DNA of 63,650 bases, the filler included, from Bigelowiella natans CCMP2755 (Eukaryota > Protista > Cercozoa): NCBI GenBank assembly GCA_000320545.1. It is 3 parts of 3 records of this genome, joined end to end, with 100 filler letters (N's around TTAATTAATTAA, not from the genome) between each part and the next. Parts side by side here need not be neighbours in the genome. Positions count along the whole stretch, not along the records: positions 1 to 30,972 come from ADNK01003115.1; positions 31,073 to 61,369 come from ADNK01003004.1; 1 more part is not named here. One strand, written 5' to 3'. The position numbers and the translations under genes are program-made. Position 1 is the first letter of the stretch, and the number at the start of each line of letters is the position of its first letter. The notes beneath the pieces are model-generated. The model did no database searches and was not told where the DNA came from. It saw only the letters and a list, made by a program, of their open reading frames with translations. This document shows, piece after piece, positions 3,272 to 61,319 of this stretch.

Positions 3272-4048
3272 ATATTATATATGTATATGGAAAATATATA
3301 TATGTAAAGCTGCGGGTACGGCGTTAGGTTCTGCGATTTTATGTGTTTCATATGAGACTTATCTATTAAGTTGATTAAGCCGTTTCAATTGCCATCCAAT
3401 GTAGTTGTGCTGTGCAACACAAGTCTGTGCTTCGCAGCCGCCTTCAAGTAATTTCACTACATTGTTACGAGATGTAGGCAATGCATCTATCATATGCTAT
3501 AATGCGCATCATGTATGTATAAATTAATGCGCGGCATGTCTATTAACCAAGCTAAGCGTGCGCATCGCAATATATTGTTAGACCAATACCATGTGGCCGT
3601 GCTGTTTATTTTCTGTTGTGATTTATGCTAGCATGGCTTGCGCATGATGTCTCGATTGCATCCACAGTGTGCGGCATTCTTGTGTAACATTTCGGCGACA
3701 GATTGTCTCTGTATCTAGTGTATGCAACGGCGATCACTACACTATACGCCGCACATTTAGATGTAGCGCTTGCTAGCTTGCTAGCAGAGACCGCTAGACC
3801 AGCACCAGTAGCGAGAATTTTCAAGTTTAGCGCTAGTACTTCAAGCACGTGCCATGCCAGGCTAGCAGGGGCGGTCGAAAGAGCATGATGTGTAAATGGA
3901 GGGCACAGAATTCTTAATTAAGAGCTTCCGATGAATACACAGAAACATTCATGGGTAATGTTTGACAGCACATGTGCCTGCTAAATTGCTTTCCGCACAT
4001 GGCATTTCCCGTGCTAAAACTGATTTTAATATCAGTTAACGACCTCAT

Positions 4049-4808
4049 CTAAGCCTTGAGGTACCTGAGGTAGATACAACATGCATGAATGCTTCGCATC
4101 AGGCTGCAACATGAAATTGACGCGAAATCCAATTGAGCATGGGAAAATGCAACATCCTGTCCTATCACCATCACCACCAACATTCTTGCCCTCCCTCTCT
4201 CCAATTGCAAGTACTTCTTCAAGATCGCCCCAAGACTTTTTTTGTGCTCCTGCAGGGTATGGTTTCGATGGGAAAGGAGAGTCAATTCAACGACGATATT
4301 ATAGAGCTAGCTGGAGCTTCTAAGCACAAACAACCAAGATGATTATTTGTCCTGTGACAGTCAATCTCCTCCCGCCGTCGTTTGAAATAGTCTATCAGCC
4401 CTCTATTCCCCTCACCATAGTCAAAATTGATGAAAGTCCCTCATGTCTCATTTTGGCCTTGTTTTCAATTTCGGTCTCACCTCCTTCGCCAGGACGTTGA
4501 CATCACCGAGGAACGCGAACTTGAGAGCATCGTGGACAGCGCATTTGGGCTGCGGGCGATGAGAAGGATGAATATGTGGAGGGGTCGAGCTTAGCGTGGA
4601 TGATAAAAGGCAACGATGGTGGTAATCGTGTCATACACACACACACATATAGTGTATGTAACATATAACTCACCGGGCTCTTTCCCAATTCAGTCACCAC
4701 AGCTGCGACGATCTACAACAGGGGAGTGGGCGGATATCAGTATGGGGTTATTGCATCTTGAATGCTATGGATTTGTCATCTTCCTCTCCTTAGCCCCACT
4801 ATGCGCCT

Positions 4809-4847
<39 letters not shown>

Positions 4848-6815: not shown

Positions 6816-6859
<44 letters not shown>

Positions 6860-8476: not shown

Positions 8477-9764
8477 GGGGGGGGGGGGGGGTTGTGTGTA
8501 TGTGTGTGTGTATGCATATTGTTTGGTCTGGCCAATCCTTTCAGGAAGAATTCCGTAAAGTTTCGTTGAAATGTTGGCTGTTATTCTCCCCTCCTTCCTG
8601 TCTCCCTCCCTCCTTTCCCTTTCTCTCCTTAGATTCTTGGGAACTACAGGTACTACGTTTCCGCTGGGGAGGAGGTAGTTGCACACCCGAAGTTACAAAT
8701 ATGTGCATTGCGTCCATTTCTGTGCTTTCGCCTCAACCCTACGAGTAGGGTGGGAGCGCCAATTCTAGCTGAATCTCTTTCATAATCGCAATCGATTTTT
8801 TTTGCGGGACACACGATCGATACCGCCACGATTGGTGCACCACCACCACCGCCAACAACAACAACAACAAACTGATCTCCTATTTCTAACACCCAGCTAG
8901 AGGTGAGGGCAACCGAAGATGGACTATCACTGGTAGGGCAAGCACAGACGCGACAGCTCTTTCACCGTCAACCCTCAGCGAAAACGTCGCCGCTTCTACA
9001 AGCTTTGATCCGCTTCTACAAGCTTTGATCCGAATAATCACGGTGCAATTTTTGCTTTTCCTGATGTGCTGTTAGGTGTGGGCCGAGATACCAACTTTTG
9101 CCGATGTGGAGGTTAGAAGCTACTACCACAACTACGTGCGCAAATGATCTCCGTCGTGTCGCACGCACACGCAACAGAGGGAGCTCAGAAGCCCCCCCGC
9201 TCACCGCCCCTGCTCTCCCAACTAATCCTTATTCCCATCGTTCAGGTACAATCTGTGACTGGGAGCGCGGCGGCTGGACGTGCTACAGCCGAAAAGCTAA
9301 CCGGTTAGTTAATATTGAAGATGACTCAGCCTTGGCCGCACAATATCTTCGATATTTCTGTTGTTCGCTAGCGGAAGGAGATAGACAGGACCTAAGTACG
9401 GGGCTCACACCGAACCGCCGTTTATTTGAATTTTCGCCGCTTTCTCCTATTTTCTGCGAAAAAATGTACTGTGTTCCTCTCTTTGCCTTGATGCGACCGT
9501 TGGATCTATGAAACATTTGTGCTTAAATAGCTACCACGGTCAATGGGAGGGTGATCACAGGCTGTGCGAAGTTTGTGGAGGCAGGAACGAAGATCCAAAT
9601 CAAGGTAATGTTGCCGCATTGATGCAGTCTCTCGCCTGCCAGTGTAGAAACATGGGCGTCGTAGCGAGCAATGTGCTCGCCAGCTTCGCATAATACGCGA
9701 TGATAACCGATATGCCATCACAAAGGTGGAGACGGAGGAGTACGTGGGAAAGGCCGACTCATGA
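7338..9764 (+). CDS. efp: Bacterial-type elongation factor P, organelle-targeted (probably mitochondrial); about 10 exons, start approximate
   Basis: Exons: IKSQEISVGNILQYKQQMCK|VEKIETTMQGRGSNFYV|VDMRAISNNKKHSAR|LRSGEKVELVELKRLDMQYLYED|NEVYFMDPDSFEQI|...|VWAEIPTFADVE|...TVNGRVITGCAKFVEAGTKIQIK|VETEEYVGKADS* (TGA 9762-9764). These match all three EF-P domains, preceded by an Arg-rich N-terminal extension. Confidence 0.88.
8991..9030. repeat. Perfect 20-bp tandem duplication (cgcttctacaagctttgatc x2) in an EF-P intron
   Basis: Directly visible at 8991-9010 and 9011-9030. Confidence 0.95.
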
Positions 9765-10657
9765 TTAACTAGCAATAAATTAACACACCGCGACGAATGA
9801 TGTGGAATCATGATCTAGATGATACGTGCGCGTTTGCACACAGCGGAGTGGTCGAGATTTGCACATTGTTGGTGCGTGACAAGAATCACTGCGGCGGTAG
9901 TGCGAGCACTGGCAATGCGTCAACATGTAGCAGCGTTTTTCGGGTCATTAAATGTTGTGCCTTGATCGAGGAGTGTCGTGCATGCTGTGTGCACGCACGC
10001 ATCGCAAGCACAAAGATGCATTGCACCTTTTCACGTTCGGCAAATGTGTGCATCATTGTGTCACGACACGGGGCTAGCGCTCACCATCAATGGCGACATG
10101 ACAGGCACATCATGAGCGCTGCAGCCGCTGCTTTGTAGCTACATTGGGAAAACCATTGGAACTTTTTAGCTGCACGTCGTCGTTACGTCATCATCCGTCT
10201 CATGACGATGTGTCTAATTGTTCAACAAGCCAAGCACACCCAAGATGAAACCATGCACAGATGTTGCATACATGCGTGTGTGTGTGTAGTGGCCATGATT
10301 GCATAGGTGCAATGTATGCTGTATGCTAGTATGGGAACAAATCGGTTGCCCGCGCACATGGCTAGCTGACTGGACTTCGATGTCACCAGGCACATGTCTC
10401 ATATGCAATGACAACACGAGACAAACACAAGACAATCGCAAGATGTTTTGTGCAGTCAGGGCCGGCTGTGTGCATGGATTAGCATGGAAGCTGGTATATG
10501 TACTGGTCAACACCTGAACGCAGCTCGCAGTATGAATTCTGACTATATGACCAATATTCAGCACTTGCTGTTATCATCACCATTCGGATTGTGGTATAGC
10601 AATGCGTGGAGCAGCATGCCTTACAACTAATTTTTGTGCGAACATAAAAACACACTG

Positions 10658-10695
<38 letters not shown>

Positions 10696-10760
10696 TCCAG
10701 TGTGTTTACTGATACGTTATGGATGTTAGATAACTACATCCGGTGTGGTTTGCACTGGGG

Positions 10761-11252
10761 CTACTTCCGCGGTTTGTGCCCCCACTTACCTGTAGTACAT
10801 TAAGACACACATGAATTAATGCCACGATGCACGACGCACAATAACGATGTATTACTGCTTGTACGAGCGAGTTTTGGTTATTCCGAGTGAATCTAGCGTT
10901 AAAAGACGCTGCAGCAGCAGCAGCCGCTCCATAGGGTTACGTACCACGATTGCCCTTTTTAGGATGGTGCTGACTCCTCCGACCCGTAAATCCGCCATCG
11001 GAGCCATGGTGAAATCTCCGGCCACGCGCATTACTCTGCCCCCCCCCCGAGAACGAGTCTCCAAACCCTACGAACACCACCACAGCCTTCGTGATCAGAG
11101 AGCAGCAAAACCAAAAACAGAGCGACAGACATGCAAGCTCGGGAATCATTCGCATCGGTAGGTCGACGCATCGACTGAATTTCGCTTTCCGTCGTGCCGA
11201 TACCCGACGCCAAAGGGCACACAACCCAGGCCAGGATGGGATGGATATTTTG

Positions 11253-14474: not shown

Positions 14475-14560
14475 GGAGGGGGGATTAGGGGGAGAAAGAG
14501 AAAGGGATCGATCCACTTCACTTACACGTTATTGCGTTTATTACACAACAAATAGACAAT

Positions 14561-14608
<48 letters not shown>

Positions 14609-15521
14609 CATCATACACGTAAGCTAGCAGATCAACTTTTGATCCTTGAGCTCATAGTACACAACAACAACAACTACTACTACTGCTACTACTACTTCTA
14701 CTCACTTTTGCGGCTTTGTAGCTGGGTGTGTGATAACGCTCAGCCTGCACAATCACGGGTCAAACATGTAGCTAATATGTACATATAGATGCTGTACTCA
14801 TAACCATTCCTCCACCGCCCCCTTCCCTGCTCCCTCTCTCTCTTTCTCTCTCCCTCCCTCTCTCCCTCTAGCTCTCTGGCGCATCCCGATTTCACAGCAG
14901 CAAAGGGGCTGTCTGTAAGTCGAGCAGGCGGCAGTGTGATGATTACATATGCAGCACAAATCCACGTATGAACATAGTGCATACTAACTGCGAGTACTAT
15001 ATCTGCTGCTGCTGCTGCGGCTGCTGCTACTACTACGGCTATACTCATTTCGTACCTGTGTAGAGTCCCTGGAATGCCCACCTTAGTGTAGAAATAATAT
15101 AAATATATGTATTTATTTATTTTTATATGGCAAATATATAGAATGTGTTTGTATGTGTGGTGTTTTCGAGTAAGTGACAATATGTGGGGAGAGAGGTCGG
15201 CACTACCCGTTTCGAGTCCATTGCTAGCTCATTAGCCTCAAACAGCTCTCGGAACAACGCCAGGTTCTTTGTACGGCGTGGTTTTGGAGTAGGAGGAGGA
15301 GGAGGAGGAGGAGAAAGAGGAAGAGAAGCAGCACCGTATACACGCACAAAACAACGGCAAGAACAAGGGCGCCATATATCATCATATCATCGCAACGATC
15401 TTTTAACTACGTCAAAAAAGAGCTTTGAGGATGCAAGGAGTCCTCCAATTATTCGTATCATATGTGAAATGAAATGCTTGCACACGTGTTCGCGCAATCA
15501 TCAGATCAGCGCTGCTTACAT

Positions 15522-16844: not shown

Positions 16845-17280
16845 ACATGTTTTCTAATCGACACTCATGCGCTCACCGAGGCCTCCATTTGTCCCGATCC
16901 AAGATCTTCATCTTTCCAATCACCCATTGGATTTTGCACGTAGGCTACCGACGACAGCGGCATGGATACGCGCGGGTTCCCCCCACCCTGATTTGGCCAT
17001 TTTTTTTACTGAGAGCATGGCGTTCGCGACACCGAAACCAGCAAAACAACGGTACGTGTACTGCCTACTAGGAGGCCGCGCTTGCGTGCGCTCTCACCTC
17101 CCGAGCGCCTTTCATGTCATCCATGTTTTTCAAATTGGCGTGTTCAAACTTCTCCGTGCCGATTGGTAATCGCAGGGCGTTTTTGTGTATTATTTTGTTG
17201 CGACAATGATTATTAGGGAAAAAACCGTATGAGGAAATAACTCCTCGAAGAAGCTCAGCAACACCTCCCTCACGGGCGAC

Positions 17281-19629
17281 ATGGCGGTTGCGGTTGCCCT
17301 CCTCCTCGCCCTCCTTGCCCCCAAGGACGCGTGTGCTGCTGTGCCCCGCGTTTTCCTTGGTCACTGGGAAGTTACATCGGAGGGATGTTCTCCTGAATTG
17401 CCAATGGTACAGCTTTCTAGCATCGTAATTACCAGGGACCGGACCCACCCCCTCCTCCTGAACATCAATAGGACGTGGGCTGACTCAGCTCAGAAGGTGG
17501 TGACCGAGGACATTGTCCAGATCAGTGGGGAAAACGAAGCTGGCGAAATATGTTCCCCCGTGGCGAGTCGCGTCTGGCCGTACAATGTTTACGTTGGCGT
17601 GGAGTACGATATGAGAAACAGCTCGTGCACAACCACGAGCGAAGGGGACGATGGTATCCGTTTCAAAGCCCGAACACAAATGCTATCGGCGCAGCGCCTA
17701 TTCGAAGAGACTGCGGTCCACGATCTCAAAGTGAGCGGCGGACAGGATGCCGCTCAGGAAGTGCTCCGCTATCAGGTCAGCACGGCCCCGACGCGTGCAT
17801 CGTACTCATGCTCCCTTGTGCGAAAGACGGAGAATTCTTCTCTTGCCAGCTCTCGGCGAGTAGAGTCGGCAGCAAATCGAAATCCAATGAAATCCAGGAG
17901 CCAAAACCTGGAATCTTCACAGGTCCACAAAGACAACCGCCACTATTCGCCGTCGAGGCCTTCAGCAGGCCGAGGACCAAGGGGTTCAGACCGACCTGCT
18001 GCCGCCGCGAATCGTTTCCTCTACAATCTCAACTTGACCAACAATTGGACTCTTTCCTCGGTCGATTTTCAGCTGAACGCCTTAGCCATCGGGCTGCAGG
18101 GTTTGGCTAACCGCAACGCACACACGCTATACCTAACGTACCCCGCAGGATGGGACATTAGCTACACCGCCACAGTTAAGACCTACCTTGAGTCTTCTCG
18201 TGGATTTGCCTTCCAGGAGCTCAAGAGCCCATTAGACGCTGTAGCACAAATTCTAGAGGCGAAGGAGAGCCTAAACGTATCGATCCAAGGATATGTAGTG
18301 TGGGATCCGCAGGTGAGGGAGTCGCTTGTAGTTGCATACACCGTCGCCGGGACAAGGGATGCGCTCGTGGTGACCGCAGGCCAGGTGCCCCTCATGAAGA
18401 AGCACGGCCTTCCCGAGCTCGAAAACCTGAACGGACGATTTCGCGGATGGCCCCCCGCGAAGATTTACTCCTGGGCGCGGGAGGAGCTCTTCGGCCAGTG
18501 CAACCGGTCTGCGATAGTGTGGGCGGGGGGGGATTGCCACAACGCGATGAAGCCTGGGGTGATGGATTTCGGCGTGTCTAACAGGGCATTCTTCACCGAT
18601 CTCGACACCCGCGTCGAAAGCGCCGACGAGTATCCCCTGGCGACCGAGATTCTGGGTGAGATGGAGGGCGATTTCCTCGTGATGGGCTGGCACAGCTACT
18701 GCAAAGACTACGAGCATACGTTCACGACACTGGCGTCTTCGCACGGAGGAAGAGTCCACGGGCTGAACACAAACCCGAACTTGAGCTTCATGACTCACGT
18801 GAAGCTTCCCGCCAACTACACCTTTAAGAACAACCATTCGCCGGGCTTGGAATGGGAGAGGCCAGAGCAGCGCGAATCCTCTCGCTCCGACTCCTCTTCT
18901 TCTTATGCCGTGGACAAGGAGGTTTTCATCACGTTGGTACAAACTGACGGGCTCGGGCTTGGAGCGTGGAACAAAGAGGGAAGGGGCGTGTTGCCTTACG
19001 CATGGGAGGTCATGATGCCCGACCTCGAGATCCAGCCCGTATTGCTGGAGATGTTCTATGAGCAAGCGACTCCAAACGACACGTTTGTAGCTGCATTATC
19101 CGGCCCAGGATATATTTACCCAAAAGCTGTGCCTCCTTCAATCCTGCCCTCAAGACTCTTGGCGACCGAGCGCTCCATGAGAACCCTGGATCTGCACCAT
19201 CTCGTAGCGTTCGATGCCTCTGCCACGCACGGGGAACACACCGTGACCGGGGACACCACACTCAGCGAGTCGGTTGTGCGGCAGTACTTCCAACTGAACC
19301 GCACCGACATAAACGGGTTTCTAAACGGCTACGGGCCAACGTTCACCAACGTTTACGATAGCGCATCGAATCGCTCCCTTTTAAGCTTCGATTACTACCT
19401 TGACCCCGAACGATCAGTGGACGAGGCGGTGGCCGACATCGAGATGCTGGCACAGCTGAACAAACGACGGCCCTATTTCTTACCGATACACGTCCGAGAG
19501 TGGTCTACCGTAATGAAGGTAGAGCAGATCATGGCGAAACTCAACCCCGCCACGTATGAAGTAGTCCCGATCGATCGATTTTTCAGACTTGCCAATCAGT
19601 ACCACACGTTTCTCACTCGCTACACTTAG
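17281..19629 (+). CDS. Secreted GxGYxYP-family putative glycoside hydrolase (782 aa, intronless)
   Basis: Signal peptide MAVAVALLLALLA; LQGLANR and GYVVWDP motifs; QTDG and SGPGYIYP (the GxGYxYP motif) in the C-terminal domain. Confidence 0.85.
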   Translation: MAVAVALLLALLAPKDACAAVPRVFLGHWEVTSEGCSPELPMVQLSSIVITRDRTHPLLLNINRTWADSAQKVVTEDIVQISGENEAGEICSPVASRVWPYNVYVGVEYDMRNSSCTTTSEGDDGIRFKARTQMLSAQRLFEETAVHDLKVSGGQDAAQEVLRYQVSTAPTRASYSCSLVRKTENSSLASSRRVESAANRNPMKSRSQNLESSQVHKDNRHYSPSRPSAGRGPRGSDRPAAAANRFLYNLNLTNNWTLSSVDFQLNALAIGLQGLANRNAHTLYLTYPAGWDISYTATVKTYLESSRGFAFQELKSPLDAVAQILEAKESLNVSIQGYVVWDPQVRESLVVAYTVAGTRDALVVTAGQVPLMKKHGLPELENLNGRFRGWPPAKIYSWAREELFGQCNRSAIVWAGGDCHNAMKPGVMDFGVSNRAFFTDLDTRVESADEYPLATEILGEMEGDFLVMGWHSYCKDYEHTFTTLASSHGGRVHGLNTNPNLSFMTHVKLPANYTFKNNHSPGLEWERPEQRESSRSDSSSSYAVDKEVFITLVQTDGLGLGAWNKEGRGVLPYAWEVMMPDLEIQPVLLEMFYEQATPNDTFVAALSGPGYIYPKAVPPSILPSRLLATERSMRTLDLHHLVAFDASATHGEHTVTGDTTLSESVVRQYFQLNRTDINGFLNGYGPTFTNVYDSASNRSLLSFDYYLDPERSVDEAVADIEMLAQLNKRRPYFLPIHVREWSTVMKVEQIMAKLNPATYEVVPIDRFFRLANQYHTFLTRYT

Positions 19630-20881
19630 GTAGGCCTCATGATTTTTCATCCTAGTTGATAGTGCCTTGCATTTCTACTTTGATTTGATCACATCAGATT
19701 TTTCATGCATGTTGCTTCTGTGTCACGTACTAGCGTACTTGGATGAGCATTCACACCTCTGGATCGTGTGCTGTGCTGCGACGTGTGCAGTGGACTACAT
19801 GCTGTGTCTAAACGACTCATGTGGGTCATTATTAGTTGCATTGACATTTGCACGCGCAAGTCTAGTTGGACACGTGCTGACGTGGCTTGACTGTGGATGT
19901 TGTGCTGAGCTGCGTGTTGCATGCGATGTCTCACGCGCCGCCATGCACGCACGAACATCGTGGACAAAGTGAATAGCGACGATCGCTGGTGACCACACGC
20001 ATGCACATGCATGGGCAGCCACATTGCATCGCAAACTAGCAAACCTGCACCACCTACACATCCAGCTAGTCAGCTCCGCTAGCGTTGCACACGCCAGCAT
20101 TGCTGCGTGCTGCGCATGGCGTGCGATGCGGCGCTGTCATGCTGTGACGATCGACAATGCTGCTGCTGGAATGCGTCGATCGTGCACACGCACTTTCGAC
20201 ATGAATGAGTGAATGAATGAATTGAGCGATTCAACAGGAGCGATTGAAATGATCTCAAGTCACGCCTGCCACATGCCATCTGAACATCAGGCGCGTGCTG
20301 CAACGCGATGTTGCTGTCTGAGCTAGGCTGATTTTTTTTGTTCACGAGAAACCACGGCTAGACGGAGGCCTGTCAGCGCGAGAGCCTGCAGAGAATTTTG
20401 GCTAACTTTTTGTCCTATTTTCGAGTTTTCCAGGATGTCAGCTCGACGGAAAATTTTCCAGGTTTCAACGGATTTGGGATGAAAACTGGTGCCAAAAAAA
20501 AAGCTCTGTTCTTGTGCGTGTTTAAGTCGTAAGATGTATTGTACATTATTATCAATGGGACGACTAGGTGATTCCTGCAAAAAAATGTCGATATTGGTTC
20601 CTTCTGTCCAGAAACTCAGCCTATTTCGGAGCTACGGGAAACATGTCGGACGAGAAGGAGATTCTCAAAGCCACAACAGGGAAGAAATAAGCTCAATGTG
20701 GTTGCAGGAGTCGGACAGTGTGGTGGGAAATCATATCTGTTTACACACGAACGACTTCATTTATTTCGTCTCTTAAATATAAATCCAGGCAATGTATGCC
20801 CCACCCGTGGACAAGCGGTATCGGAAGGCTAAGACTAGACTTCAATTGACCCCCCTCTGCTCCCCGTGACTCTCCGTGAAA

Positions 20882-26992: not shown

Positions 26993-28071
26993 AAGGGGCT
27001 ACGTGCATAGGAAGAGAAACAGACTTGCTGCTCAAGCAGTTGCAGATTACACCGGGATGTATAAGAGATCTGAAGAAAAGGCACCTGGCCATAAGAAATA
27101 ATGGGCCTCCAGAGGCGACTCCAAGACGAAGAAGATATTGAATAATGAGGCGATGCAATCGCCGCGACTACGGCGAGAAACATTCTAACAGCTATATATG
27201 TTATCTGCAGCATTGATGACTTAGAATTGATCATACGTCGTCGTCTGGCTAGTCGTTGTTTTCGGGTTAGTCTCATAGCTCGTACTCGTATATCCTGCGC
27301 GCGCACGTGTAACCCCTGCAACACATAGCCCGACAGTGTGATTGTGACGCGCAGCATGCTTACTAGCTGTGAGACGGATGTAATGAAGTAATTCAATGTT
27401 TTCAATGGTCATCTTAATGTATCCTAGCTGTGCAAAATAACGGCGGCGCTTATCTAGCTTTGTTGCATCTATTTGTCTTTGTTATCTATCGTGTACGTAT
27501 ACCTCATGCATGTGAGACGCGCATGTCGTATTTAGATGATGTACTGCATTATCGAGGTAGCATATGAATCTATGCTAGCTAATTATACTGCGCTAGCGAG
27601 TATAGCGTGTTCTGCTTCTGTACGCGTCTAGACGTGGCACAAGAGATGCCGCTCGGTTCGATTGGATGTACGTATATATGATTATGGATCCACGCATCAA
27701 GCAATGTTGCAGTGCGTTCTAGTACGACACATCATGCATTGCATGACTTTATTTGTGGTGTTAGCAACCAAAAAAAAACGAGCAACAATGCTAAAATGGC
27801 GCATGCGCATGCTAAAGTCGAGCATTCTTGCTCCAGGCGCTGCGACACATGACATGATCAACTTTTTAGAATAAGCGGCAATAATGTAGAATGTGCTTCC
27901 TTATCGAGATCGCAGCCATCAAAGTAACTTAAGCGGGATTGATCACCAGCAACTAGTAGCCGTGATGAATGCAAATATACAAACACCACGCTACATTACG
28001 AAGCTGTGTGCGTGCGAAGCATGGGCGGCATCGAACATGCATGGCTAAATCAATGCAAAATGGCTTCCTCA

Positions 28072-36632: not shown

Positions 36633-37295
36633 GGATGTATACGTAAGATGAAGCTTGGCAGTCATGCGAATTGGGCACATTTAGCCGTTCTGTCGCGCGG
36701 AGCACGCGCCTTGCTAGCTTGGCATGCATGCGATGCACTATGTGCCTCGTAACACGCTAGCACGGTTCAAATGAGCTATTTTGTATCAATGCCATCCACA
36801 GCATGTATGTGCCCATGTACGTAATCGTACACACATCTAGACATCTAGACATGTGTATATATGTACGTGCACGTGTATGTGCGTGTGTGTGTGTGTGTGT
36901 GCGCTTTGGGAGCGTGTAGCATGTAGTGCGCTTTTCTCTTGGTATCTGCAGGTCACACACTATCTGCTCTAGTGCTAGCTATGTGGTTACAGCTTGTAAA
37001 AGATGTGTCGCTCATAATCTAGATAATGCACATAAACATTATTCGTTGAACATGTGCCGCCACGCGTGTTCTACGTCCATCACAATGCTTGGACTTGTTG
37101 GTGCATGCGCACAGATTGCTTTGAATGATGTGCTATACTTTAATGAAAGACAGAGAAATGTGAAGCAGCTACGCTAAATGCAACATATATCGTCATGCAC
37201 TAGTGCATGCTAGCATGGCTTTTTCCTCTCCCGCTTGTTTGCATAGCGGGACCAAATATTTGTTCGATACGGCAGTGCATATCTTTTCCATTCCA

Positions 37296-41845: not shown

Positions 41846-42375
41846 AAACGTCTCATTTGAACTCCCAATGATAAAACACCCATGACGAAATCTTGGGCAA
41901 TAAATAAGCATGTGCGCGATCAACAAGGAACTCAACAGCCAGCGCGGTTATGCATTGTTGCCGCGTACAGCATGCGCCGCGTACGGCTATAGTACATTAT
42001 AACAGTCAGCAGGTACATGACAATCGTATCATTGACACGCGTGTGATAGGACTTCTAGACTTGTTGTGTCATTGATATTGCCGCCCATGTATCTTTAACA
42101 TATATAGCTAGATAGCTGTAGCACATCCAGGCGCATCGCACGCAGAGTTCATTATAATATATGCAATATGATATGTATATATAATATATATATACCATAT
42201 TGCTGTGTCTATTATATATTTGATGTATGGCAGATGAAAGTAGATGCATGGCACACGTCATGCGATGATGCATACTTCATACATTATTACATCTTGCCGC
42301 TGCTTCTGGCTGGAAAAAGTTTCATGATGTTGTTATTTTTCATGATTTGCATGGTGCATGAACTTTTTAATAGCA

Positions 42376-43080
42376 TCATGCGAACCTGGCCAGTTCCCTC
42401 TCAATCAACATGCTGTATTTGTGGCGGACTTGCTCTGCAATTCCCTGGGCGATATGCTCTTGAATGAGTCCCCTTTGCAATTCCTCATCAACGTCTATGA
42501 GCCCACACGCTGTGCGCCTATCCGAGCAATTTTCATAAGTGTCCCTACCCACTCCAATCGCGACAGAGCCTATTAATAGCCTACCAGTTTCACCATGTTT
42601 CACATCAGAACATACACACACACGCACTAACACACACACACTCACAGGCACAAATAGATAGACAGAAGGGCAGAGGGGCACAATACATTCACAAATTGTA
42701 TACAGAGATGCGCATGCACAACACACGTGGCCCCACACAAACACGCCAGCATGAAATGTATCAGGGAACTCCTCCGACATTCAAACGTAACGAGCTGACG
42801 GAAAAACGACGACCCCATCGTAAGTTGCATCTCGTTCGGCTCTCCAGCGTTAGAGCACCGATCTTCAAAGGTCAATGGAAAGCCTGAATAGGCGAGGTTG
42901 ACTGTCCGTCTCTCGTTGCCGTTGGAGCGGCTCTTATCGCACACCAATGGGACCCTGAAGCGTTGATTCCAATCGTTCGTCTGAGAGACATTACAGCGCA
43001 GGGAGGGGGCGCTGAGCTCACGATCAGAAGAGGATACCTGAGTTCGTTGATATCCCAATCGTTAGTACGACAGCCAGCTA

Positions 43081-45854: not shown

Positions 45855-46695
45855 TTCTCGCTTAGCCTTTAAACCCTTTCCATTCAAACCTCAGCCTCCG
45901 ATAATCCACAATGCTAGATTTCGAGGAGGAAGAGAACGGGGGATTTCATCGTGGCCCAAAGGCCCTGCTGCGCCTTTTGTTGCTGCGCCACATCCCATTT
46001 ATGGGCCAACTGGTTTTGGGTTAGGGTCAAAAAGAAAGAGGGAGAGAGATTTGTGTTATTTGGAATATAAACAGGCAACCAATACTTTCTTAAACTGGCT
46101 CCAGGAAAGCTCACGTCAAGATCCTATTAACAGCTGCAAAAAGATCAAACTGGCTGTGGAAAAGATAAAAGCCGCTGGTATGCAAATGCCCAAACATGTA
46201 CGAGATGCACTGGCGTCGAGCATCGGTAAACGAAAAAGAGTGAAAGGGACGCTTAAGCAAAAAGACGAAGGTCACGACCACTTCATTAGGTTATTAGAAA
46301 GTATCCAAAAGGAATTTCTTTCGGACCACAATGAAAGCCCCCGCCATGCTCGTCGTCGTGGTCTACGAAAAAGTGCCAGGCGCAGATTGAAGCTGAACGT
46401 CACTTCACATCTCCCTCCTGATTCTGGTGAAACTAAGCCACCTGAATTGGAAAATCACCGTAGAAAGCTTAGCCTTGAGACTAAAGAAAGATCCCATTTC
46501 GGAGGAAACTCTAATAAAAAATTAACTTACCCTCCTGTCCTAAAGACCAAACCGTTCCCAGTCCTCCTTCCGAACCAAGACCACAAGTCCATGGATTTAG
46601 AAGATGAGACGCCATTCAAGGTGAAACATGCAAACAGTCCTGTTACTCTCAGATATTTCCCAGCAGAGGATGAAAGGGGACTTGTCCATTTGTGA
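45733..46695 (+). CDS. DUF6604-like domain protein (intronless ORF; true start and C-terminus uncertain)
   Basis: YLEYKQATNTFLNWL...MPKHVRDALASSIGKRKRV...DEGHDHFIRLLESI fits the recalled YKxxTxxxxxWL / LxxAIxxR / HxHFIxxL pattern of DUF6604. Confidence 0.6.
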   Translation: MMIEPRLDHALRTKKLRASASQGRSWETAHFTSRVFPTNCISRLAFKPFPFKPQPPIIHNARFRGGRERGISSWPKGPAAPFVAAPHPIYGPTGFGLGSKRKRERDLCYLEYKQATNTFLNWLQESSRQDPINSCKKIKLAVEKIKAAGMQMPKHVRDALASSIGKRKRVKGTLKQKDEGHDHFIRLLESIQKEFLSDHNESPRHARRRGLRKSARRRLKLNVTSHLPPDSGETKPPELENHRRKLSLETKERSHFGGNSNKKLTYPPVLKTKPFPVLLPNQDHKSMDLEDETPFKVKHANSPVTLRYFPAEDERGLVHL

Positions 46696-47331
46696 TTAGC
46701 CAGACACCTGTACCACTACCACGTCGGCAGCAACGAGGCCGTGATGACAGGTTCCAAAATATGTTTTTCGCTCCAATTTGTGAACAAGTATTACCACAAT
46801 GCAAAATGATTCGAAAAGACACAATCGTTCGAGGTTTGAACGTAGATTTGTGGTCGCATCATTTTTTATGCACACTGTGCGCATCAGTTGCGTCAGAGCA
46901 CAACTGAGCACGCCGAAAGCATCCAATGTACTTTTTAAATGTGAATAATGATGAAAAATGAGCCATGAAAACTTTTTTTTTGTCAACAATTTATTAAAAG
47001 AAAATTTAGCGCATTTCATTCCTATTTGTCCATGTTGACATGTGCTGCGCGCATTTCAATGCTTGCAAAAGGTGCCGTTTGATCTGGACGTGCTGTTTCA
47101 GAACTGGGCATACGTGCTCTAGTATCGTTTTGAACCAGCTATTCTGTGCCAGTGTTTGGGACATGTACATGTGTCGTAGTGCACATAATATTTGTGTTGT
47201 TAACTATTGCGGTAGTAGGATCAGTACATGTCAACGACAGTAAGGCTAAAAATATAGTATTGATCTTTAGACCCTGCGGCCAAGGCAACTGCCATCGCAA
47301 ATCTAGGCATTAATTTTCTATGTCAGGGAAT

Positions 47332-48229: not shown

Positions 48230-49137
48230 GTCGTTTTTCTTAGTCTCTGTGTCGCTTTTCTTAGTCTCCTACACATCATTACACAGTTGTTTGTAATCTG
48301 TAACCCTAGATTGTCTGTCTTTCAGCCGCCCCGCTTCTCCTTTTTACTTGTCCCAAACGACCATTAGCTGAGCGTGCGAACATCACTCTTCGTTAAGGCA
48401 CCTAACGCAGACTACCTGATCATCAGATTGAGTCACATCTTCGGTCTTCCGTTGCTTTACGGTCGTGCTCATGGTGTGATCTTTCAGCTTTGTAGGAATG
48501 TACTTGCTCTTTGTTTCGATTCAGCGAACTGAGATGCAACACGTATCTTATTTCAAAAGTAGAGGCAAGTTGACCGTCAAGAACGTTTGATCATTGATCA
48601 TCTCGATGTAGATGTAATGTACGTGTTTCGCGCCAGTGAGAAAGAAGCGTTTACGTTGTTTGGGTTTTAAAAGCTTTCGGGTGCTCGTCGGAAGTCAATT
48701 AAGATCTCGCAAGATCCTAATAAATTTATCCCCTTGCAATTTAGGTACAACGACATCGAGCGAAGGGCTGAAGTTCTACATATTGCAGGTTCTTTTGAAG
48801 GCGTCTTTATTTTCAACGTAATACAAAATTCATTTTTAGAAGTTTGACCGGTCGCAAGATCGCAAAAAGAAACAGATGCAATTTTCGGTAAAAAAACGTT
48901 TGAAATCATGACGCCTGTGTTAAATGTTCTATGATTTAAGTAAGCTTGCGCGGATGGGTACACAAGCTTGCAGCAGTCAAAAATCTGTCAAAATTCTCTC
49001 ATACCCATAACCTCCAGGAACTCATCGGGACAAAAATGGAATGCCATTTCACGGCTGCGGCATGTAATGCAGACGGAAAACAACAAAACAACAAAACAAC
49101 AAAACAACAAAAACAACACAAAAAAGAGAAAAATATT

Positions 49138-49256
49138 GGATACAACAACGCCGTGTTCCCGCGTGGTCCCCCACCGCAGTACTAACGAGTCCCAACGACG
49201 CTTAACTTCCGAGTTCGGCAGGGATCGGGTGTATTAGTCGTGGTATGGTCGTATCC
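49138..49256 (-). rRNA. 5S rRNA (single copy in window)
   Basis: Minus strand reads GGATACGACCATACCACGACTAATACACCCGATCCC...CGAACTCGGAAGTTAAGC...TTAGTACTGCGGTGGGGGACCACGCGGGAAC...GTTGTATCC: 119 nt with paired ends, followed by oligo-T Pol III terminator runs. Confidence 0.97.
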
Positions 49257-51882
49257 ATCTACATGCTAAGAAACAAACTACTGTCATCTAAATACATCAT
49301 TCGGACATTTCATGTCGCAGGGAAGAATTCACATGAAGATTTGATGCTTTCTGGTTGTATGAGGGTTGTCGCAGAGGAAAACCAGAGCTTTTTAAAAAAG
49401 AAACCAAACGCTCACAGCCCGGGTCACAGAGTTTCATAACCGGAAAAGAACGCTCGCCCGGAAACGGTGCTGGAAACAATGGGGAGACGGATACACGATT
49501 CACTAATTCCGGCGCGATTCCTCTCGACAATGGGCTATCTCATTGCGGCCTCGCTGGTTTATTTTAGTAAGGTCGGCAATCTGGAAGCATGCGATAAGTG
49601 CTCGTGATCATTTCGTTGTTGAGGGGCATGCTGACACTTACACAACTCACACAATCTCTCTTACCTCCCTATCCGTATATTCCAGGACGACAACATCCGG
49701 TCCTCGTTAGCAGCAACGTACTCCACATCTGAGTACGACACGAAAGACAGGTCTTCTCAGGAATAGCCTTAATACTCAGCTAGGATAAAATGCAATTACC
49801 TCTAAACGCACGTAATGGCACATAATACGCAGCGAAATTACTGCGGCGATAACTCTCGTCGTCACGTGCCTGGCAATACAAATCTTGAGCATGCTTAGCG
49901 GCTACACACTGTTCATGGCTCAGCTCAACGCAATCCGTAAGAGAATTTCCAGAGTTTTGATGACCATTTATCCCCCAAAACTGCTTATTCTGATGCTCTT
50001 GATCGCTGAGACTATAATCCGTGTTAAGGGGGAAGGGGGTGCTCGATAATACGTACAGTTGTGTAGATGACGTTGAAGGTGCTATGGTATTATGATTCAG
50101 ACGTCCTTTTGAATGCTATCGGCGCCATTCTGACCTGCTGGTTCATCTTAGATTCGTGGCATGTGAGTCATCATACACTTACAATTTGTCGATTCTGTTT
50201 CGGTTTAAAAGAGAGAGTTTCTGATTTGAATCCTTCAGGTTACATCATTCTGGTACCTCTTCACCTTTTTCAGGTAATCATCCTACTAGTAATTTGATGG
50301 GATGTTAAGTTCTTAAATAACATTACTTTTACAGTCTGCTTCCACTGGCCCTTGAGATATCGTACATGTTGAATATGATGTGCTGCAACATACAGGTATG
50401 GGATTCCGTTTCGTTTCTCTTCCTTCCCATCTTCTCTATAAATTGCTGATAGTTGTTTTTTCTTGCTGTAATGTAGTCCTGACGCTGATGCTTCCAAGAT
50501 TCTCTAACAGTTACTCAAATTTTATTGAAACATTGTACATATAGAATGTAGTATAATAAAGCTTCATTGTGTGAGCTATTTGCACTAGCTTATGTTAGTA
50601 GCCAATAAGCTGGCCTAATCCTGCTGTAGCGCGCGTGAATCGTAAATTATATGTCTTATTATGTTACGATGCGTTTTGATTGCGGTATTGCGCCTAGACT
50701 ATAGCTGATGTATGCACCATGATGGCATGCTCGATTATTAGCTTGCAAATGTCAGGGAGGATCACCACATACGATACGTACATGTTATACACATGTGTAT
50801 GTGTATGCACGCGCAATGACTTCCCATCATAGAATATTAGATATTATTAGACCTACTGAACAACAAAAAATAATGGAAAAAATAAAATCAGCCAGCTTAT
50901 ATGATTACTGTGTAGACACGATCATGATCTGATCTCTGGCACATGTATACATGTCTAGATGTGCATGCACATGTAAGTACGCGTGTAGCGAGCAACTAAA
51001 GAACGCTCAAGTATCATAAGTGTGCACAATCTAGGTGCTGTATAGCTGCATAGAGAACCACTAGTGCATTCATCGGTGTCTGAGCTATATTGAAAGCTAC
51101 ATGCAGATAGCTGTGTGGGCTAACTAGCTAGCTTTGTGCTTGTTGATGCTGCAGCCTGGTGTAAAATGCGCCATAATACAGCACAGGATATGCATGCAGA
51201 GAATTTCTGCACAATGAACATAATAGTTAATGGACTTCATAAAAATCTAATGTACTTCTGACTTATTTACATGCAATGCATTTCAAAACCCATGTTGTAT
51301 GCGTGCTTCAATCCGCTTGAGCACCTGCGTACGTACGTGCGCTAGACATTTGCATTTGGTCTCTAAGTCAAGTTCTTCCCAACATTCTTCTAGACATTCG
51401 CATATGGTCTCAAGTTCTTCCTGACTTCATCTATAAAAAAGCTTTAAGAGCATATAATCGTCGATCAATAAAAAGCAACAACATTTCCGCAAAAAGCTGC
51501 TCCTATGAAACCGCACAGCTACGCACTAAGCGTAGCGACACTAAAGCGAGGCCGTCCATGCTTTCACCGCCACAACAAACTGACAAAGTAAGACTGGAAG
51601 AATTACGGCCTCTAAGTTTCTGTTTGACTCTGATTTGCAAGATTCAGCCTCTGCGTCTTACATTCATATTGTGCAGCGAGGAGCTGGAAAGCACCTTCGC
51701 TTGAATGTCACAAACACAGTTTTTCGCCCCCACGCACTGCCCAAGAGTGCAGCATTGCTATACTATTAATTAATATACAGGCAATTCTCTTTAGGACGTT
51801 CAGTCGGAGCCAGCAAAAGAACAAGAACATGTAAATATATAAATGTACAAATGTTCTCAGGCAAAAACGTGTGTGTGTGTGT

Positions 51883-56782: not shown

Positions 56783-56916
56783 CTTCCGGTTTTTGTATGT
56801 GCGACAATTATTTATCGAGATGAAACCCAAAAGTGGGTTGCGAAACAATGGGAAACTACGTCATACCACATTCGATGGCAATTTTTCATTAGCGACAATG
56901 AATTATTAACCATGCT

Positions 56917-59028
56917 ATGAGTAAAATGGAACGATATTCACAAATTCGCACGTTTCGGGTGCCGTTTCCAAGCATAGGGATACACCGAGATACGAGTATT
57001 GTCCAGTCTCTAAAAGAAGAGTTGGCTTTACGCACGATGGAGGTGGGAGATGGGGAGCTCAAGGACGTTCCCTCTGATTACTTATGCCCCATCTCGCATG
57101 AGTTGATGAAGAACCCGACTGTCAATGAGGTAGGGTAGACATATGATTACGAGAGCATCGTGGGGTGGTATGCGCTCGGGCACAGGACCGACCCACTGAC
57201 CCAGCAAACGATTCAGAACTTACATATTCTCATCCCCAATCATAACGTGAGGGGCAAGATCCAAGAGTGGGTCCAACGCTATCCGGAGATGCAGAGGAGG
57301 AGAATGGAGAAGTTCGATTTCGAGACTGCGTGCAAGATCTATGCTCATGACCACTAAGCCAAGGCTCAGAAGCAGCAGCAGCAGCAACAGCGCGCAAACC
57401 TCATTGGTGAGGAAGAAAAGGACCGGGAGGAGGACAGGAAAAACGTCGATCAGAACTCACGGCATCCCGAGAACTGGACTGAAGAGAAGATGGCTTCGTT
57501 TGTCGGTGGGTTAGGCCGCGGTGCCATTTGGCAGGGTTATGCGGAATTGTGCGTGCGAGAGTGCATCGATGGATCGACTTTGCTCAACGCTGAGCTAAAC
57601 GATCTGGTGAAATACGGCATCAAGGAAATACACGCCCGCACGATGTTGAAGAAGGTGAAACAGGCCGCTGGTGTTAAAGACAGTTCTACTAATGCGGTAG
57701 CCGCCGTAGCTGTAGCCATGCCTCCAGTCCCCGAAGATACTGAGCGCCTGGACTTGTGCGAAAGTCACATAGAGCTTCTGCAGAGCTGCGAGACGAAGAT
57801 TCGAGAGGCCAAGGGAAAACTCTCTGAGCAGGAGGCATCAGAGCTAGAAAGGGTCAAGAGCGAGTTCAAGCTCATAAGAGAACACATCGACGGCGAAGAG
57901 CTCCGGGTGACCGAGGTCATCACCGCTGAAGCTAGGAAGATGCACTCGGTGCTAGATGACGCCCTAAACACCGTTCGTAACAACACAGAGAAGTTCAAAG
58001 AAAAGGAGCGCCAGCTGCAGCAGACGATTCGAAGCACGACGAGCTGGTCCGATACGAAGAAGAGAACTGCTGAGATCGTCAAGATTACCCAGAGTGTCCT
58101 GGAGAAGCTCCAGCCTTACATTGTTACTCCTCCTGTCGTAGCTGTGAAATTTTCGGAGGCATGTGCACCGTTGTTCACCGGGTGCAACCTCGCCAGGGTG
58201 CAGATAATCCGTCCAACGATTGAGGACCGGTTTACTATCGAGTCAGCTACGAGGAAACTCAAACGACTGCAGGAGCACAAGGAGTTTCTTGCGTCGCAAG
58301 CATGGTCCATTTCGATCGCGCCGATGCAGAGCAAGCGAAGCAGTGTCGCAGCCTGCGTGCACGGCGACAGGATGTACGCGGTCGGAGGTCATGACGGGAG
58401 CTCCAACTTAAACACCGTGGAATGCTACGATTTCAAGGCCAAGAGTTGGAGCTACATCGCGCCGATGAAGAGCAAGCGATGCGGTTTCGCGGCCTGCGTG
58501 CACGGCGACAAGCTCTACGCGGTCGGGGGTCATGACGGGAGCTCCAGATTGAACACCGTGGAGTGTTACGATTTTGAGGCCAAGAGCTGGAGCTACATCG
58601 CGCCGATGAAGAGCAAGCGATACAATGTCGCGGCCTGTGTGCTCGGCGACAAGCTCTACGCGGTCGGGGGTCATGACGGGAGCTCCAGATTGAACACCGT
58701 GGAGTGTTACGATTTTGAGGCCAAGAGCTGGAGCTACATCGCGCCGATGAAGAGCAAGCGATACAATGTCGCGGCCTGTGTGCTCGGCGACAAGCTCTAC
58801 GCGGTCGGGGGTCATGACGGGAGCTCCTTTTTGAACACCGTGGAGTGTTACGATTTTGAGGCCAAGAGCTGGAGCTACATCGCGCCGATGCAGATCAAGC
58901 GATACAGTGTCGCGGCCTGCGTTCACGGCGGCCACCTCTTCGCAGTTGGTAGCAAGAATGACGATAATGGAACCTTCGACACCGTGGAGATTTTGCCTTG
59001 TGTTTTCAAAGCAAGCAACAACAGCTAG
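56917..59028 (+). pseudogene. Intronless U-box + SAM-like + coiled-coil + Kelch-repeat E3-ligase-like gene, interrupted by two in-frame stops (TAG 57136-57138, TAA 57355-57357); downstream 512-aa ORF from 57490 is intact
   Basis: ORFs 56917, 57160 and 57490 share one frame. U-box VPSDYLCPISHELMKNPTVNEVG*TYDYESIVGW...TDPLTQQ...LIPNHNVRGKIQEW; SAM-like CIDGSTLLNAELNDLVKYGIKEIHA; Kelch repeats YAVGGHDG...TVECYD...W. Confidence 0.75.
58315..58950 (+). repeat. About 4.5 near-identical 141-bp tandem units encoding Kelch blades
   Basis: atcgcgccgatg recurs at 58315, 58456, 58597, 58738 and 58879 (period 141). Confidence 0.95.
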
Positions 59029-59692
59029 ACGCGTCGTGCTAGCGTGATGATCGTGCTGACGTGGCACACATTTTTTGCACTCACGTGAACATGTTCTTGG
59101 AATGCAGACATTTTAGCTGCGTCATTCCGCTTGTTGATCTAGCTAGCTAGTCGTCAATCTCAGTCAACTTTCTGTCAGTCTTGATTGCAAATATTTTTCT
59201 AAATCAATGTGTTAAGCGTTGTTTTGTCATGAATGGGAGCTAAACAGCTACCCGAGAGCGTGTACCGCGTGAATGTTAGAGCATTCTAGCATTGCATGCG
59301 CTTTGGTCGATCAGGCATCTATCATTACATGCTAGCAAGTTCTAGAAGTTGCATTTGCCCCAATGTTGCATGAAATCTTGGTCTGTCGAAATCTGCTGCT
59401 CTACAATCCCTAATCCTGCTTGTTGTCATTTTGTACACACGATCATATAATGCTAGAATGGCAAAACGCACCTAAAGTAAATATCATCCAACCCAACGTA
59501 CGTCTTGCGCAGCGGTTTAATTTCTCAGATTTTGCTGCAAATCATGTATGCCTGCACAAATGATCATTGTTTCTCTTCCCTTGACTAGTTGATGCAACAT
59601 AATCACAACTACAACTTGCTAACATCGCTATATGCACATGCACACATTCGACATTTGTTAAATATAAACTTCATGCACTCCACACGTCCATT

Positions 59693-61319
59693 CTACTTCT
59701 TCCGCTTTGTGCTTTTCAAATGGCGTTTCATTGTACGGTAAGGCCTCCGAAGGCCCTATATGGAAGATATAAGAACAAAAAAAAGAAACAACAATGTAAG
59801 AATCTGAAGTGAGCGTCCTTTCTTAATTGCTTTGCCAACGGGTTTGGAATCAGTGTTTCTTCAAAACTGAGAAGGCCATTTGTATGTTCATCTATTTAGC
59901 ACCTTTGCCTTTGCGAGGTCCAGAGCAGTCTTCATTTCGCTGCAGCAAGGTAAATTGGAAAAATGCCACAAAATGAGAATACAAACACGATACAACAGGA
60001 GACAATTTTTTCACACAAACAAACAACCATTCACTCACCCACACGATAACACTCACGCATACACACTTACTAATTAGCTGCAACGTAGCATGCCATGGGC
60101 AGATGGATAGAGGATACGCATAGCAATCACTATCCATCTGTCAGCACCTATTAGTAGCTTTGGGATTTGCTCCATTAGACAAGAGGATATCAACAACTCT
60201 ATTGAGGCCACGTGCGTCTGGATTGTTCCCGTAAGCTTCTCCATCACCCTCCCCCTCTTCCTCCGAGTCAGAGTCAGACCCGCCAACATCGCCTTTGATT
60301 GAAGAATATGTACAGGCCAAACGTTTATATATTGCACGCATGGCGCACACTCTTACATCCAGCTTTTTTTTAGATGAAAAAGGTCCATGACGAAATGAGC
60401 TCTACTTCCCCCCTCCCAACATCCAACCAATGTTAAGATAACCTCATCGAAGTGCTGCTCCAGCACAGCATTGTTGCAAATATTTAATGCCGCTATCATC
60501 ATATCCTGATGCTACGATTTGCCGCGAAAACAATGAACGACTCTACCTGTGAAAACAGCGTGGAGAGGCGTATTCCCTCCTTCATCTGCTAGCGTAAGTA
60601 ATGCTGCCGGCGTGAGCGTCCCCCCCCCCAGCTGAAAAGGAGCTGGTGATGATGCTGATGAAGAGAAACACAGCAAGACATCTGACGTCAAAATATGCCT
60701 CGATGGTGCGACACATACCATCATTTCTTGCAAAAATGTAGCTGTAGACGTCAGCAATGCTGCATCGCTATTACCAGTGTTTCCCACTTCTTCCCTCCTC
60801 CCTGCGGCAGTGGTTGGCGACGCAGAATGAACACTGGCCAAAGAACGGGAGGGGGGGGCTGACGATGCTGCCAGCTCGAGAAGCAGCGCAAGCACACTCT
60901 GAATGTGTATGGCACAACGATCGTTATTGTTGTTTCGGATTCGATTCAAAGATGATATTTTGCACAAAAATCTTCACGATGGTTACTCCTTAGAATCTAT
61001 TGGTTGGAATATGGAGGAAACACGGCGCATAATCGCCAAATGGTATAGGTTTGAAATATCCGTACGAGTGAAGGGAAATTCGATGATTTTGATAAGGCTT
61101 GTTATCCGCATGTATCCAAACCCTCATCGTCACTTTGTCTGAATCCAAAAGGCGATGATTTGAAATAAAACGCTACATTATTGTCTAATTTCGGTGTAAA
61201 AATCAATGTTCCTGTTGCATTTCTCACAAACCGGTTTGTGTGAATGCGCAGCTTCGTGGAACGCTGTCCATCCGCCGGTAGAGCTTTATTTCCATACACA
61301 CAAAACACACACACACACA

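What the first reader, a model, noticed from the sequence alone, without database searches (positions are those of the whole stretch)
3380..59700. Purine-pyrimidine-alternating GCAT/TGCA/CTAG tracts at nearly every gene 3' end
Seen: 0.2-0.9 kb non-coding blocks dense in gcatgc, tgca, acatgt, tagcta, ctag and gcgcgt occur at about 3380-4020, 9780-10630, 19640-20320, 27200-28050, 36640-37220, 41900-42370, 47020-47250, 50520-51360 and 59030-59700. Seven lie between convergent genes and two lie just downstream of a single gene. By eye they are absent from the divergent promoters and differ from intronic microsatellites. They do not look like copies of one repeat. Inference: a composition-encoded termination/insulator system, for example Z-DNA-prone DNA between converging polymerases or a DNA-modification domain whose CpG decay left TG/CA/TA. 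This would be conceptually like base J at trypanosome convergent regions.
Basis: partly seen in the sequence, partly recalled or inferred. Interest (0 to 1): 0.72.

Follow-up and report, generated by a model that had tools for sequence, protein, structure and literature searches.

The report
Alternating-base spacer behind every gene end
In this likely algal genome, all nine places in the window where genes end carry a 0.5-1 kb stretch with a sharply different letter pattern that seems to begin mostly where the mRNA stops; it is likely a footprint of how DNA outside genes and promoters mutates, but it could be a built-in signal that helps transcription stop.

Summary
The tracts are real. All 9 of 9 junctions that hold a gene's 3' end (8 convergent, 1 tandem) have purine/pyrimidine alternation of 0.55-0.66; all 8 of 8 divergent junctions have 0.35-0.52 (p=8e-5). 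CA/TG, GC, AT, CATG and CTAG are high; CC/GG, G/C runs and microsatellites are low. The tracts are not copies of one repeat. RNA contigs, including one poly(A) tail at 47018, hint that they lie mostly beyond the mRNA ends. In simulations, transversions at dipyrimidine/dipurine steps remove 55-76% of the difference, but none gives the 3.7-fold CTAG excess. Best reading (0.45): a mutation/repair footprint on post-poly(A) spacer DNA. Main rival (0.28): a selected two-way termination code. No description was found in 10 literature searches.

The parts
3380..4020 (.). T1, convergent junction G2(+, stop 3068) | G3(-, MTAP-like by recall, stop about 4448); best-scoring segment 3101-3867
9761..10863 (.). 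T2, convergent junction EF-P-like G4(+, stop about 9764) | G5(-, stop about 10851); runs almost stop to stop
19706..20320 (.). T3, the only tandem junction: begins at the RNA end of intronless GxGYxYP gene G6 and stops about 520 bp before G7's RNA start; alternation 0.67 against 0.45 in the 3' UTR and 0.45 on the promoter side
27181..28062 (.). T4, convergent junction Zn2Cys6 gene G7(+, stop 26992) | helicase G8(-, stop 28072); the first 190 bp after G7's stop are background-like
36636..37217 (.). T5, convergent junction DUF4566 gene G9(+) | G10(-); strongest per base (0.119 bits)
41898..42381 (.). T6, convergent junction G11(+, EngB-like by recall) | G12(-)
47019..47325 (.). T7, convergent junction G13(+, poly(A) at 47018) | Usp gene G14(-, RNA contigs end at 47070 and 47217); weakest tract
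50531..51355 (.). T8, convergent junction TMEM107-like G15(+) | G16(-, RNA contigs end at 51231 and 51289); alternation 0.64 in 50760-51230 against 0.49 in G16's proximal 3' UTR
59012..59678 (.). T9, convergent junction U-box/kelch G17(+, stop 59028) | G18(-, one RNA contig ends at 59358)
47018..47018 (+). poly(A) site of G13: a 23-A loose end in run X19, not templated in the window, after ...TTTCA, with ATTAAA about 20 nt upstream
   Evidence: table 7
19704..19724 (+). 3' ends of G6 RNA contigs in runs X15, X16, X19 (3 of 4 laid; X18 has no contig on G6)

Best explanation
The tracts are a distinct class of intergenic DNA that sits at all nine gene-end junctions of the window, probably begins near the poly(A) sites, and likely owes its letter pattern to a local mutation/repair regime rather than to a selected motif. 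Genes here alternate strand (16 of 17 neighbours), so this DNA is mostly a spacer shared by two converging genes, likely crossed only by read-through polymerase. Inferred mechanism: outside mature transcripts and promoters, lesions at dipyrimidine/dipurine steps (oxidised 5' G of GG/GA, or UV photoproducts; both recalled, neither tested) are fixed as transversions more often than the reverse. About a 2.7-fold bias in transversion rates would suffice at equilibrium (from 0.62/0.38 squared). This erodes CC/GG, purine and pyrimidine runs and leaves CA/TG, GC and AT. CTAG needs something extra that I could not identify. A weak U/GU skew on the sense strand is laid over it. Any help to termination would be secondary. 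Shown: position, composition, no shared repeat. Weak hint: mRNA ends. Inferred: organism, cause, neutrality.
For: 82% of the 4-mer difference from background is already at dinucleotide level (KL 0.277 to 0.049). There is no positioned motif, no clear 10-bp period, no RNA structure (mean z 0.00 over 53 windows) and no shared repeat. One transversion parameter at YY steps cuts KL to 0.126, two to 0.095; a free greedy search chose four transversions that all break YY/RR steps (0.062-0.067). Perfect microsatellites cover 1.1% of tracts against 6.7% elsewhere; G/C runs are 0.7 against 6.3 per kb. 3' UTRs are background-like in alternation (0.45-0.54) while DNA beyond them is 0.64-0.67. The score rises across 5 of 6 RNA contig ends. 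Precedent for region-limited, dinucleotide-specific mutation in the likely organism: 10.64898/2026.01.13.699255.
Against: No model reached the noise floor (0.016). CTAG is 52 observed against 14 from the tracts' own dinucleotides and is under-represented elsewhere (0.54); substitution models give 8-17 and fold-back models 17-29. The fits are not unique: a fold-back plus CpG plus TpA model does as well (0.096) as an oxidation-like one (0.097). The tract-intron distance (delta* 318) is four times the intron-exon distance (82), a lot for a repair difference between two non-coding classes. The same preprint gives Ts/Tv = 7 for ordinary nuclear DNA in culture, so transversions are rare there. No polymorphism or divergence data were in reach. 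The background used for fitting includes coding DNA.
Confidence: 0.45

Rival explanations
1. A selected, two-way termination/insulator code: palindromic words (CTAG, CATG, TGCA) and YG steps read alike on both strands, slowing Pol II past the poly(A) site, binding a factor, or favouring nucleosomes so that converging genes do not run into each other.
For: CTAG 3.7x, GCTAGC 7x and TCTAGA 12x over the tracts' own dinucleotide expectation, not reproduced by the models. YGY is 100 against 65 per kb and TGTG 10.9 against 5.3; YGY/TG is in Pol II pause motifs (PMC8096220, passages). Sharp onset at the G6 and G13 RNA ends. TTTT is 4.7 per kb against 15.7 in promoters. Near-strict strand alternation of genes.
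Against: No G at -10 coupling (0.236 against 0.224 expected). No position or spacing rule for CTAG was seen. Only 0.06-0.12 bits per base, so selection would act on hundreds of weak sites. The tandem junction has it too.
Confidence: 0.28
2. A domain marked by a DNA base modification (base-J-like, 5mC, 6mA or unknown) on the symmetric words, with composition shaped by the mark.
For: The enriched words are strand-symmetric, as maintenance marks need. C..G at distance 3 is 1.33 against 0.89 elsewhere. CpG's share within YR steps is down to 0.79.
Against: No overall CpG, TpA or ApT depletion. Deamination cannot make alternation. T(N)12A is 0.98 and 0 of 29 G4-like motifs lie in tracts. AMT1-type 6mA is not enriched at transcript ends in the species tested (10.1101/2024.10.28.620566, passages; it does not mention Bigelowiella).
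Confidence: 0.12
3. Ordinary 3' UTR or GU-rich downstream element composition, doubled by convergent overlap.
For: Sense-strand T>A (1108 against 953), GT>AC and TG>CA; positive keto skew in 12 of 17 gene-proximal zones (p=0.05). An unrelated eukaryote-like locus, L009, has a TG-rich 3' flank.
Against: The 3' UTRs themselves are not alternating. The zone is about 600 bp and largely strand-symmetric, also at the tandem junction (TG 82, CA 60). L009 is not among the 22 best-scoring of 130 loci.
Confidence: 0.07
4. Decayed transposon copies or decayed (CA)n/(TA)n microsatellites.
For: Alternating runs of 12 bp or more are 23 against 12 expected. (TA)n arrays lie next to or in T1, T2 and T6.
Against: The best cross-tract alignment is 35.6 bits over 24 bp, against up to 34.6 in 60 Markov simulations. 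No excess of dinucleotide tandems (272 against 278). Slippage-plus-transition models fit poorly (0.16-0.20).
Confidence: 0.05
5. Z-DNA-forming barrier between converging polymerases.
For: Alternating runs of 12 bp or more are 4.1 per kb against 1.6 elsewhere.
Against: Only 1 of the 12 strongest Z-prone runs is in a tract. The tract runs are short and contain AT/TA steps. Convergent transcription gives positive supercoiling (recalled).
Confidence: 0.03

Closest known systems
Base J at kinetoplastid convergent strand-switch regions (PMC4344527, abstract; PMC4150806, listing)
   Same: DNA class at places where transcription stops, between converging units
   Different: No polycistronic blocks, no T(N)12A excess, no G4 motifs in the tracts; no modification shown; occurs at single genes and at a tandem junction
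GC dip at convergent gene-block boundaries of Symbiodinium microadriaticum (PMC8110479, passages)
   Same: A composition shift at convergent and not at divergent sites in a marine alga, cause open
   Different: There a GC change of about 6-10% over kilobases between long gene blocks; here GC barely moves (0.45 against 0.48) and the shift is in dinucleotides and CTAG over about 0.6 kb at each gene
U/GU-rich downstream elements and Pol II pause motifs (PMC8096220, passages; downstream elements recalled)
   Same: Lies past the poly(A) site; TG/YGY-rich; weak sense-strand U/GU skew
   Different: Far longer than recalled downstream elements, mostly strand-symmetric, rich in CTAG/CATG, no G-10 coupling
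TpA-to-TpG/CpA hypermutation of integrated viral DNA in Bigelowiella natans (10.64898/2026.01.13.699255, parts 1-4 of 5 read; supplements closed)
   Same: Region-limited, dinucleotide-specific change giving high CA/TG in the likely organism
   Different: TpA is not depleted here (0.91 against 0.75 elsewhere); its best-fit rate alone is zero; its targets are foreign DNA
Apicomplexan TGCATGCA/GCTAGC/TAGCTA ApiAP2 sites and the plant RY element (recalled, not read; PMC6631176 seen only in a listing)
   Same: Same short palindromic words
   Different: Those are promoter elements; here promoters lack them, and no binding factor was tested

Membership tests
Base J termination regions | J or 5hmU present in the DNA | not testable with these tools
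   no raw long-read signal offered
Base J termination regions | T(N)12A pairs | tested here: not met
   obs/exp 0.98; spacings 3-20 all 0.92-1.03
Base J termination regions | G-rich, G4-capable sequence at the sites | tested here: not met
   0 of 29 G4-like motifs in tracts; nearest 386-5112 bp away
Base J termination regions | polycistronic units meeting at strand switches | tested here: not met
   16 of 17 neighbours switch strand (hand-made gene map)
Base J termination regions | JBP1/2 and J glucosyltransferase genes in the genome | not testable with these tools
Z-DNA-forming elements | long CG/CA alternating runs, stronger than the surroundings | tested here: not met
   recalled energies
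CpG-decayed methylation domain | CpG depletion with matching TpG/CpA gain | tested here: inconclusive
   rho CG 0.99, share within YR 0.79, CA/TG 1.57; alone it fits poorly, masked decay is possible
B. natans TpA hypermutation | rho TpA <=0.43 with rho CpA+TpG >=1.52 | tested here: not met
   pooled TA 0.91; only T3 meets both cut-offs (0.42, 1.85), 1 of 9; the paper asks for three consecutive 1-kb windows
Transposon relics | tracts align to each other or to other copies | tested here: not met
   this window only
Pol II sequence pause element | G-10 with Y-2 G-1 Y+1 | tested here: inconclusive
   YGY 1.55x enriched, G-10 coupling absent
Nucleosome-positioning sequence | about 10-bp period of TA/AA/TT or GC | tested here: not met
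   top periods 8.75 (TA), 4.5 (AA/TT/TA), 4.75 (GC); only a pooled palindrome set gave a weak 10.5 peak

The most novel reading that the evidence does not exclude
Every gene of this rhizarian alga ends in a shared, strand-symmetric termination domain written in palindromic words (CTAG, CATG, TGCA) and read by a DNA-binding factor or an unknown base modification. It would let head-to-head, tail-to-tail gene pairs pack wall to wall without read-through: a base-J-like solution reached independently in a monocistronic genome.
Probability: 0.25. Interest if true: 0.8.

Novelty: new variant of a known kind. Interest (0 to 1): 0.5.

Why it matters
Within one genome, about a tenth of the DNA differs from introns in dinucleotide signature four times more than introns differ from exons, and its edge seems to follow mRNA ends. 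If neutral, it is a readable record of a mutation/repair difference between transcribed and untranscribed DNA in a marine protist, and a simple marker of gene ends for annotation. If selected or modified, it is a termination/insulation system in a supergroup (Rhizaria) for which my searches found no account of Pol II termination. Public genome, strain and long-read data could tell the two apart.

Tried and rejected
Whole genome: none held, so nothing genome-wide. Relatives: the one metagenome scan gave 11 distant GxGYxYP loci (35-56% identity), none a close relative. Five viral-contig scans gave nothing, or 39 and 80 loci in which I saw no host-like tract among the top scorers inspected (6 of 130 loci read, 22 listed). 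Earlier findings of the scan: 6 look-ups, all empty. Topoisomerase II 4-bp duplication: no excess of 4-bp tandems (25 against 21-24). Fold-back (template-switch) origin: spacerless palindromes exceed dinucleotide shuffles (arm>=5: 24 against 11), but without periodic ones and with 4-mers kept the excess is marginal (17 against 13, p=0.20; arm>=7 4 against 1.2, p=0.05), and the model over-predicts AATT, GGCC and CCGG. p53-like RCWWGY: CAAG/CTTG not enriched (1.06). RNA hairpins: z 0.00. Lack of RNA cover over T3 and T8 and contig depth are not proof and were not used to rank genes. The intron proxy had a pattern bug (37,327 bases); I dropped it and use the corrected one (5,000 bases) and 15 RNA-defined introns. 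Huff and Zilberman 2014 and Blanc et al. 2015 were not held, so the organism's methylation state was not checked.
Full report
Source. The window is an intron-rich eukaryotic scaffold with microsatellite-filled introns. No tool named the organism. I take it for a chlorarachniophyte, probably Bigelowiella natans; this is recall from the style of the sequence and is not proven. What calls show: the G2 protein is in EukProt and has MMETSP cluster members; a G9 exon matches one protein at 100% and an MMETSP protein at 90%; 14 DNA-like runs of 'organism A' hold all sampled words of 17250-21500 and 5 RNA-like runs hold 0.66.

Gene map. I drew 18 genes by hand from translations, Pfam hits and RNA joints (15 of 51 joints shown). 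Limits are approximate. The labels MTAP, ycf45-like and EngB are recalled and had no matching Pfam hit. Order: G1- G2+ G3- G4+ G5- G6+ G7+ G8- G9+ G10- G11+ G12- G13+ G14- G15+ G16- G17+ G18-. 16 of 17 neighbours switch strand (binomial p=1.4e-4). This gives 8 convergent, 1 tandem and 8 divergent junctions.

Observation. All 9 junctions with a 3' end have alternation 0.553-0.658 and 4.3-7.4 CC/GG per 100; all 8 divergent ones have 0.346-0.523 and 7.8-14.3 (p=8e-5). Fifteen RNA-defined introns average 0.48 but range 0.32-0.67, so single short introns overlap. A leave-one-out model ranks the nine junctions first (24-75 bits; next 19.7). Dinucleotide rho in tracts: CA/TG 1.57, GC 1.76, AT 1.29, CC/GG 0.50, GA/TC 0.78, AA/TT 0.82, AG/CT 0.85, CG 0.99, TA 0.91. 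The delta* distance to introns is 318, to promoters 348, to three coding regions 333; introns to coding is 82. Beyond dinucleotides the main extra is CTAG: 52 against 14 expected, 0.54 of expectation elsewhere; also GCTAGC 16/2.2, TCTAGA 8/0.6, ACATGT 15/5.4. The block-shuffle null for the peak count was only borderline (9 of 200).

Relation to transcripts. The laid runs are assembled contigs; spliced joints absent from DNA run X13 show that X15, X16 and X19 are RNA. G6 contigs end at 19704, 19705 and 19724, 75-95 nt after the stop, and the tract runs on to about 20320. G13 has a 23-A tail at 47018, where T7 starts. G16 contigs end at 51231 (two runs) and 51289 while X13 continues. G14 ends at 47070 and 47217, G18 at 59358 (one run) (table 8 was cut). 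Alternation is 0.45, 0.48, 0.49 and 0.54 in 3' UTR pieces and 0.67 and 0.64 beyond them. The score is higher in the 50 nt after than before for 5 of 6 ends; G16 is the exception. After the stops of G3, G7 and G16 the first 200-500 bp are background-like. In short junctions one gene's UTR overlaps the partner's downstream zone (T7, T9). Apart from the poly(A) tail these are weak hints. Limit: in this window all DNA that is neither mature transcript nor within about 500 bp of a start lies in these junctions. 'Termination zone' and 'any untranscribed non-promoter DNA' cannot be told apart here.

What it is not. Not one repeat. Not structured RNA. Not clearly periodic. Not the best Z-DNA of the window: 11 of the 12 strongest runs lie outside the tracts, mostly (CA)n/(GC)n arrays within genes (energies recalled). 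Not base-J-like in sequence (against PMC4344527, abstract). Not the TpA hypermutation reported for B. natans viral inserts (10.64898/2026.01.13.699255, parts 1-4 of 5): pooled TpA is 0.91, and 1 of 9 tracts (T3) meets that paper's cut-offs.

Mechanism tests. I evolved background-like sequence under added context-dependent changes and compared 4-mers (baseline KL 0.277, noise floor 0.016). CpG decay gave 0.248; TpA change alone gave no gain; all YR transitions 0.238; C-to-T in four contexts 0.226. None moved alternation from 0.48-0.49, as expected, since transitions keep R and Y. Among 48 single processes the best was CC to CA (0.172). One rate of transversion at YY steps gave 0.126, two rates 0.095, an oxidation-like set 0.097, fold-back plus CpG plus TpA 0.096, microsatellite decay 0.16-0.20, and four freely chosen transversions 0.062-0.067. 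The tracts' own dinucleotide model leaves 0.049. So a modest transversion bias can make most of the pattern, the chemistry is not identified, and CTAG stays unexplained in every model (8-29 against 52). These fits show sufficiency at best, not cause.

Verdict on mechanism. A diffuse, unpositioned, mostly dinucleotide-level, strand-symmetric bias that simple rate biases largely reproduce is what a neutral footprint looks like (0.45). The CTAG excess, the sharp onset at cleavage sites, YGY enrichment and the size of the contrast with introns keep a selected two-way termination code alive (0.28), and a modification-marked domain is untested (0.12).

Literature. Ten searches listed no description of these tracts; the library lacks most subscription papers, two papers that I looked up were not held, I did not see the B. 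natans genome paper, and bioRxiv supplements are closed. Read as passages: 10.1101/2025.03.17.643675 (one H3K9me3/H3K27me3 state on TEs and repressed genes in B. natans), PMC13196603 (a virus of these algae methylates TGCA; no link to host tracts shown), PMC5635652 (a TGCATGCA-containing motif upstream of two nucleomorph genes), 10.1101/2024.10.28.620566, PMC8096220, PMC8110479, and PMC6461891 and PMC7779022 (nothing relevant). The closest precedent is the composition shift at convergent sites in Symbiodinium. I file this as a new variant of a known kind, interest 0.5.

Noticed in passing
window 1-61300: 16 of 17 neighbouring gene pairs switch strand (p=1.4e-4): short two-way promoters (about 0.2-1 kb, rich in A/T runs, TA rho 0.59) alternate with shared 3' spacers.
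   Followed up: partly
window 57037-59028: The U-box/kelch gene has two in-frame stops in its 5' part, while RNA contigs X15 and X19 cover that part with no other letters. It may be an expressed, 5'-broken gene. Long frames elsewhere read through under the standard code.
   Followed up: partly
window 61470-63650: After an assembly gap: 31% GC, an intronless ribonucleotide reductase small chain (42-48% identity to the 80 best viral-contig loci) and DUF5754. Giant-virus-like; CpG rho 0.56, TpA 0.92. Integration not shown; it cuts off the 5' end of G18.
   Followed up: partly
window 49137-49256 (-): A lone 5S rRNA gene inside the divergent gap between G14 and G15.
   Followed up: no
window 45736-47018: A DUF6604-like gene with alternative joints in RNA contigs (46267-46543, 46425-46545, 46618-46698) and an unspliced contig to the poly(A) site.
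   Followed up: no
window 31587-31716, 14524-14796, 43945-44022, 60041-60159: Short tract-like patches (15-20 bits) inside genes, apparently in introns.
   Followed up: no
window 17278-19629: An intronless GxGYxYP glycoside-hydrolase-like gene in an intron-rich genome, with 31-67% identity to 39 proteins from mixed sources; possibly a transferred or retroposed gene.
   Followed up: no
L035 3886-4201: A viral-collection contig (60% GC) holds a 300-bp repetitive patch rich in CATG, CTAG and alternating bases that scores 33.5 bits under the tract model.
   Followed up: no
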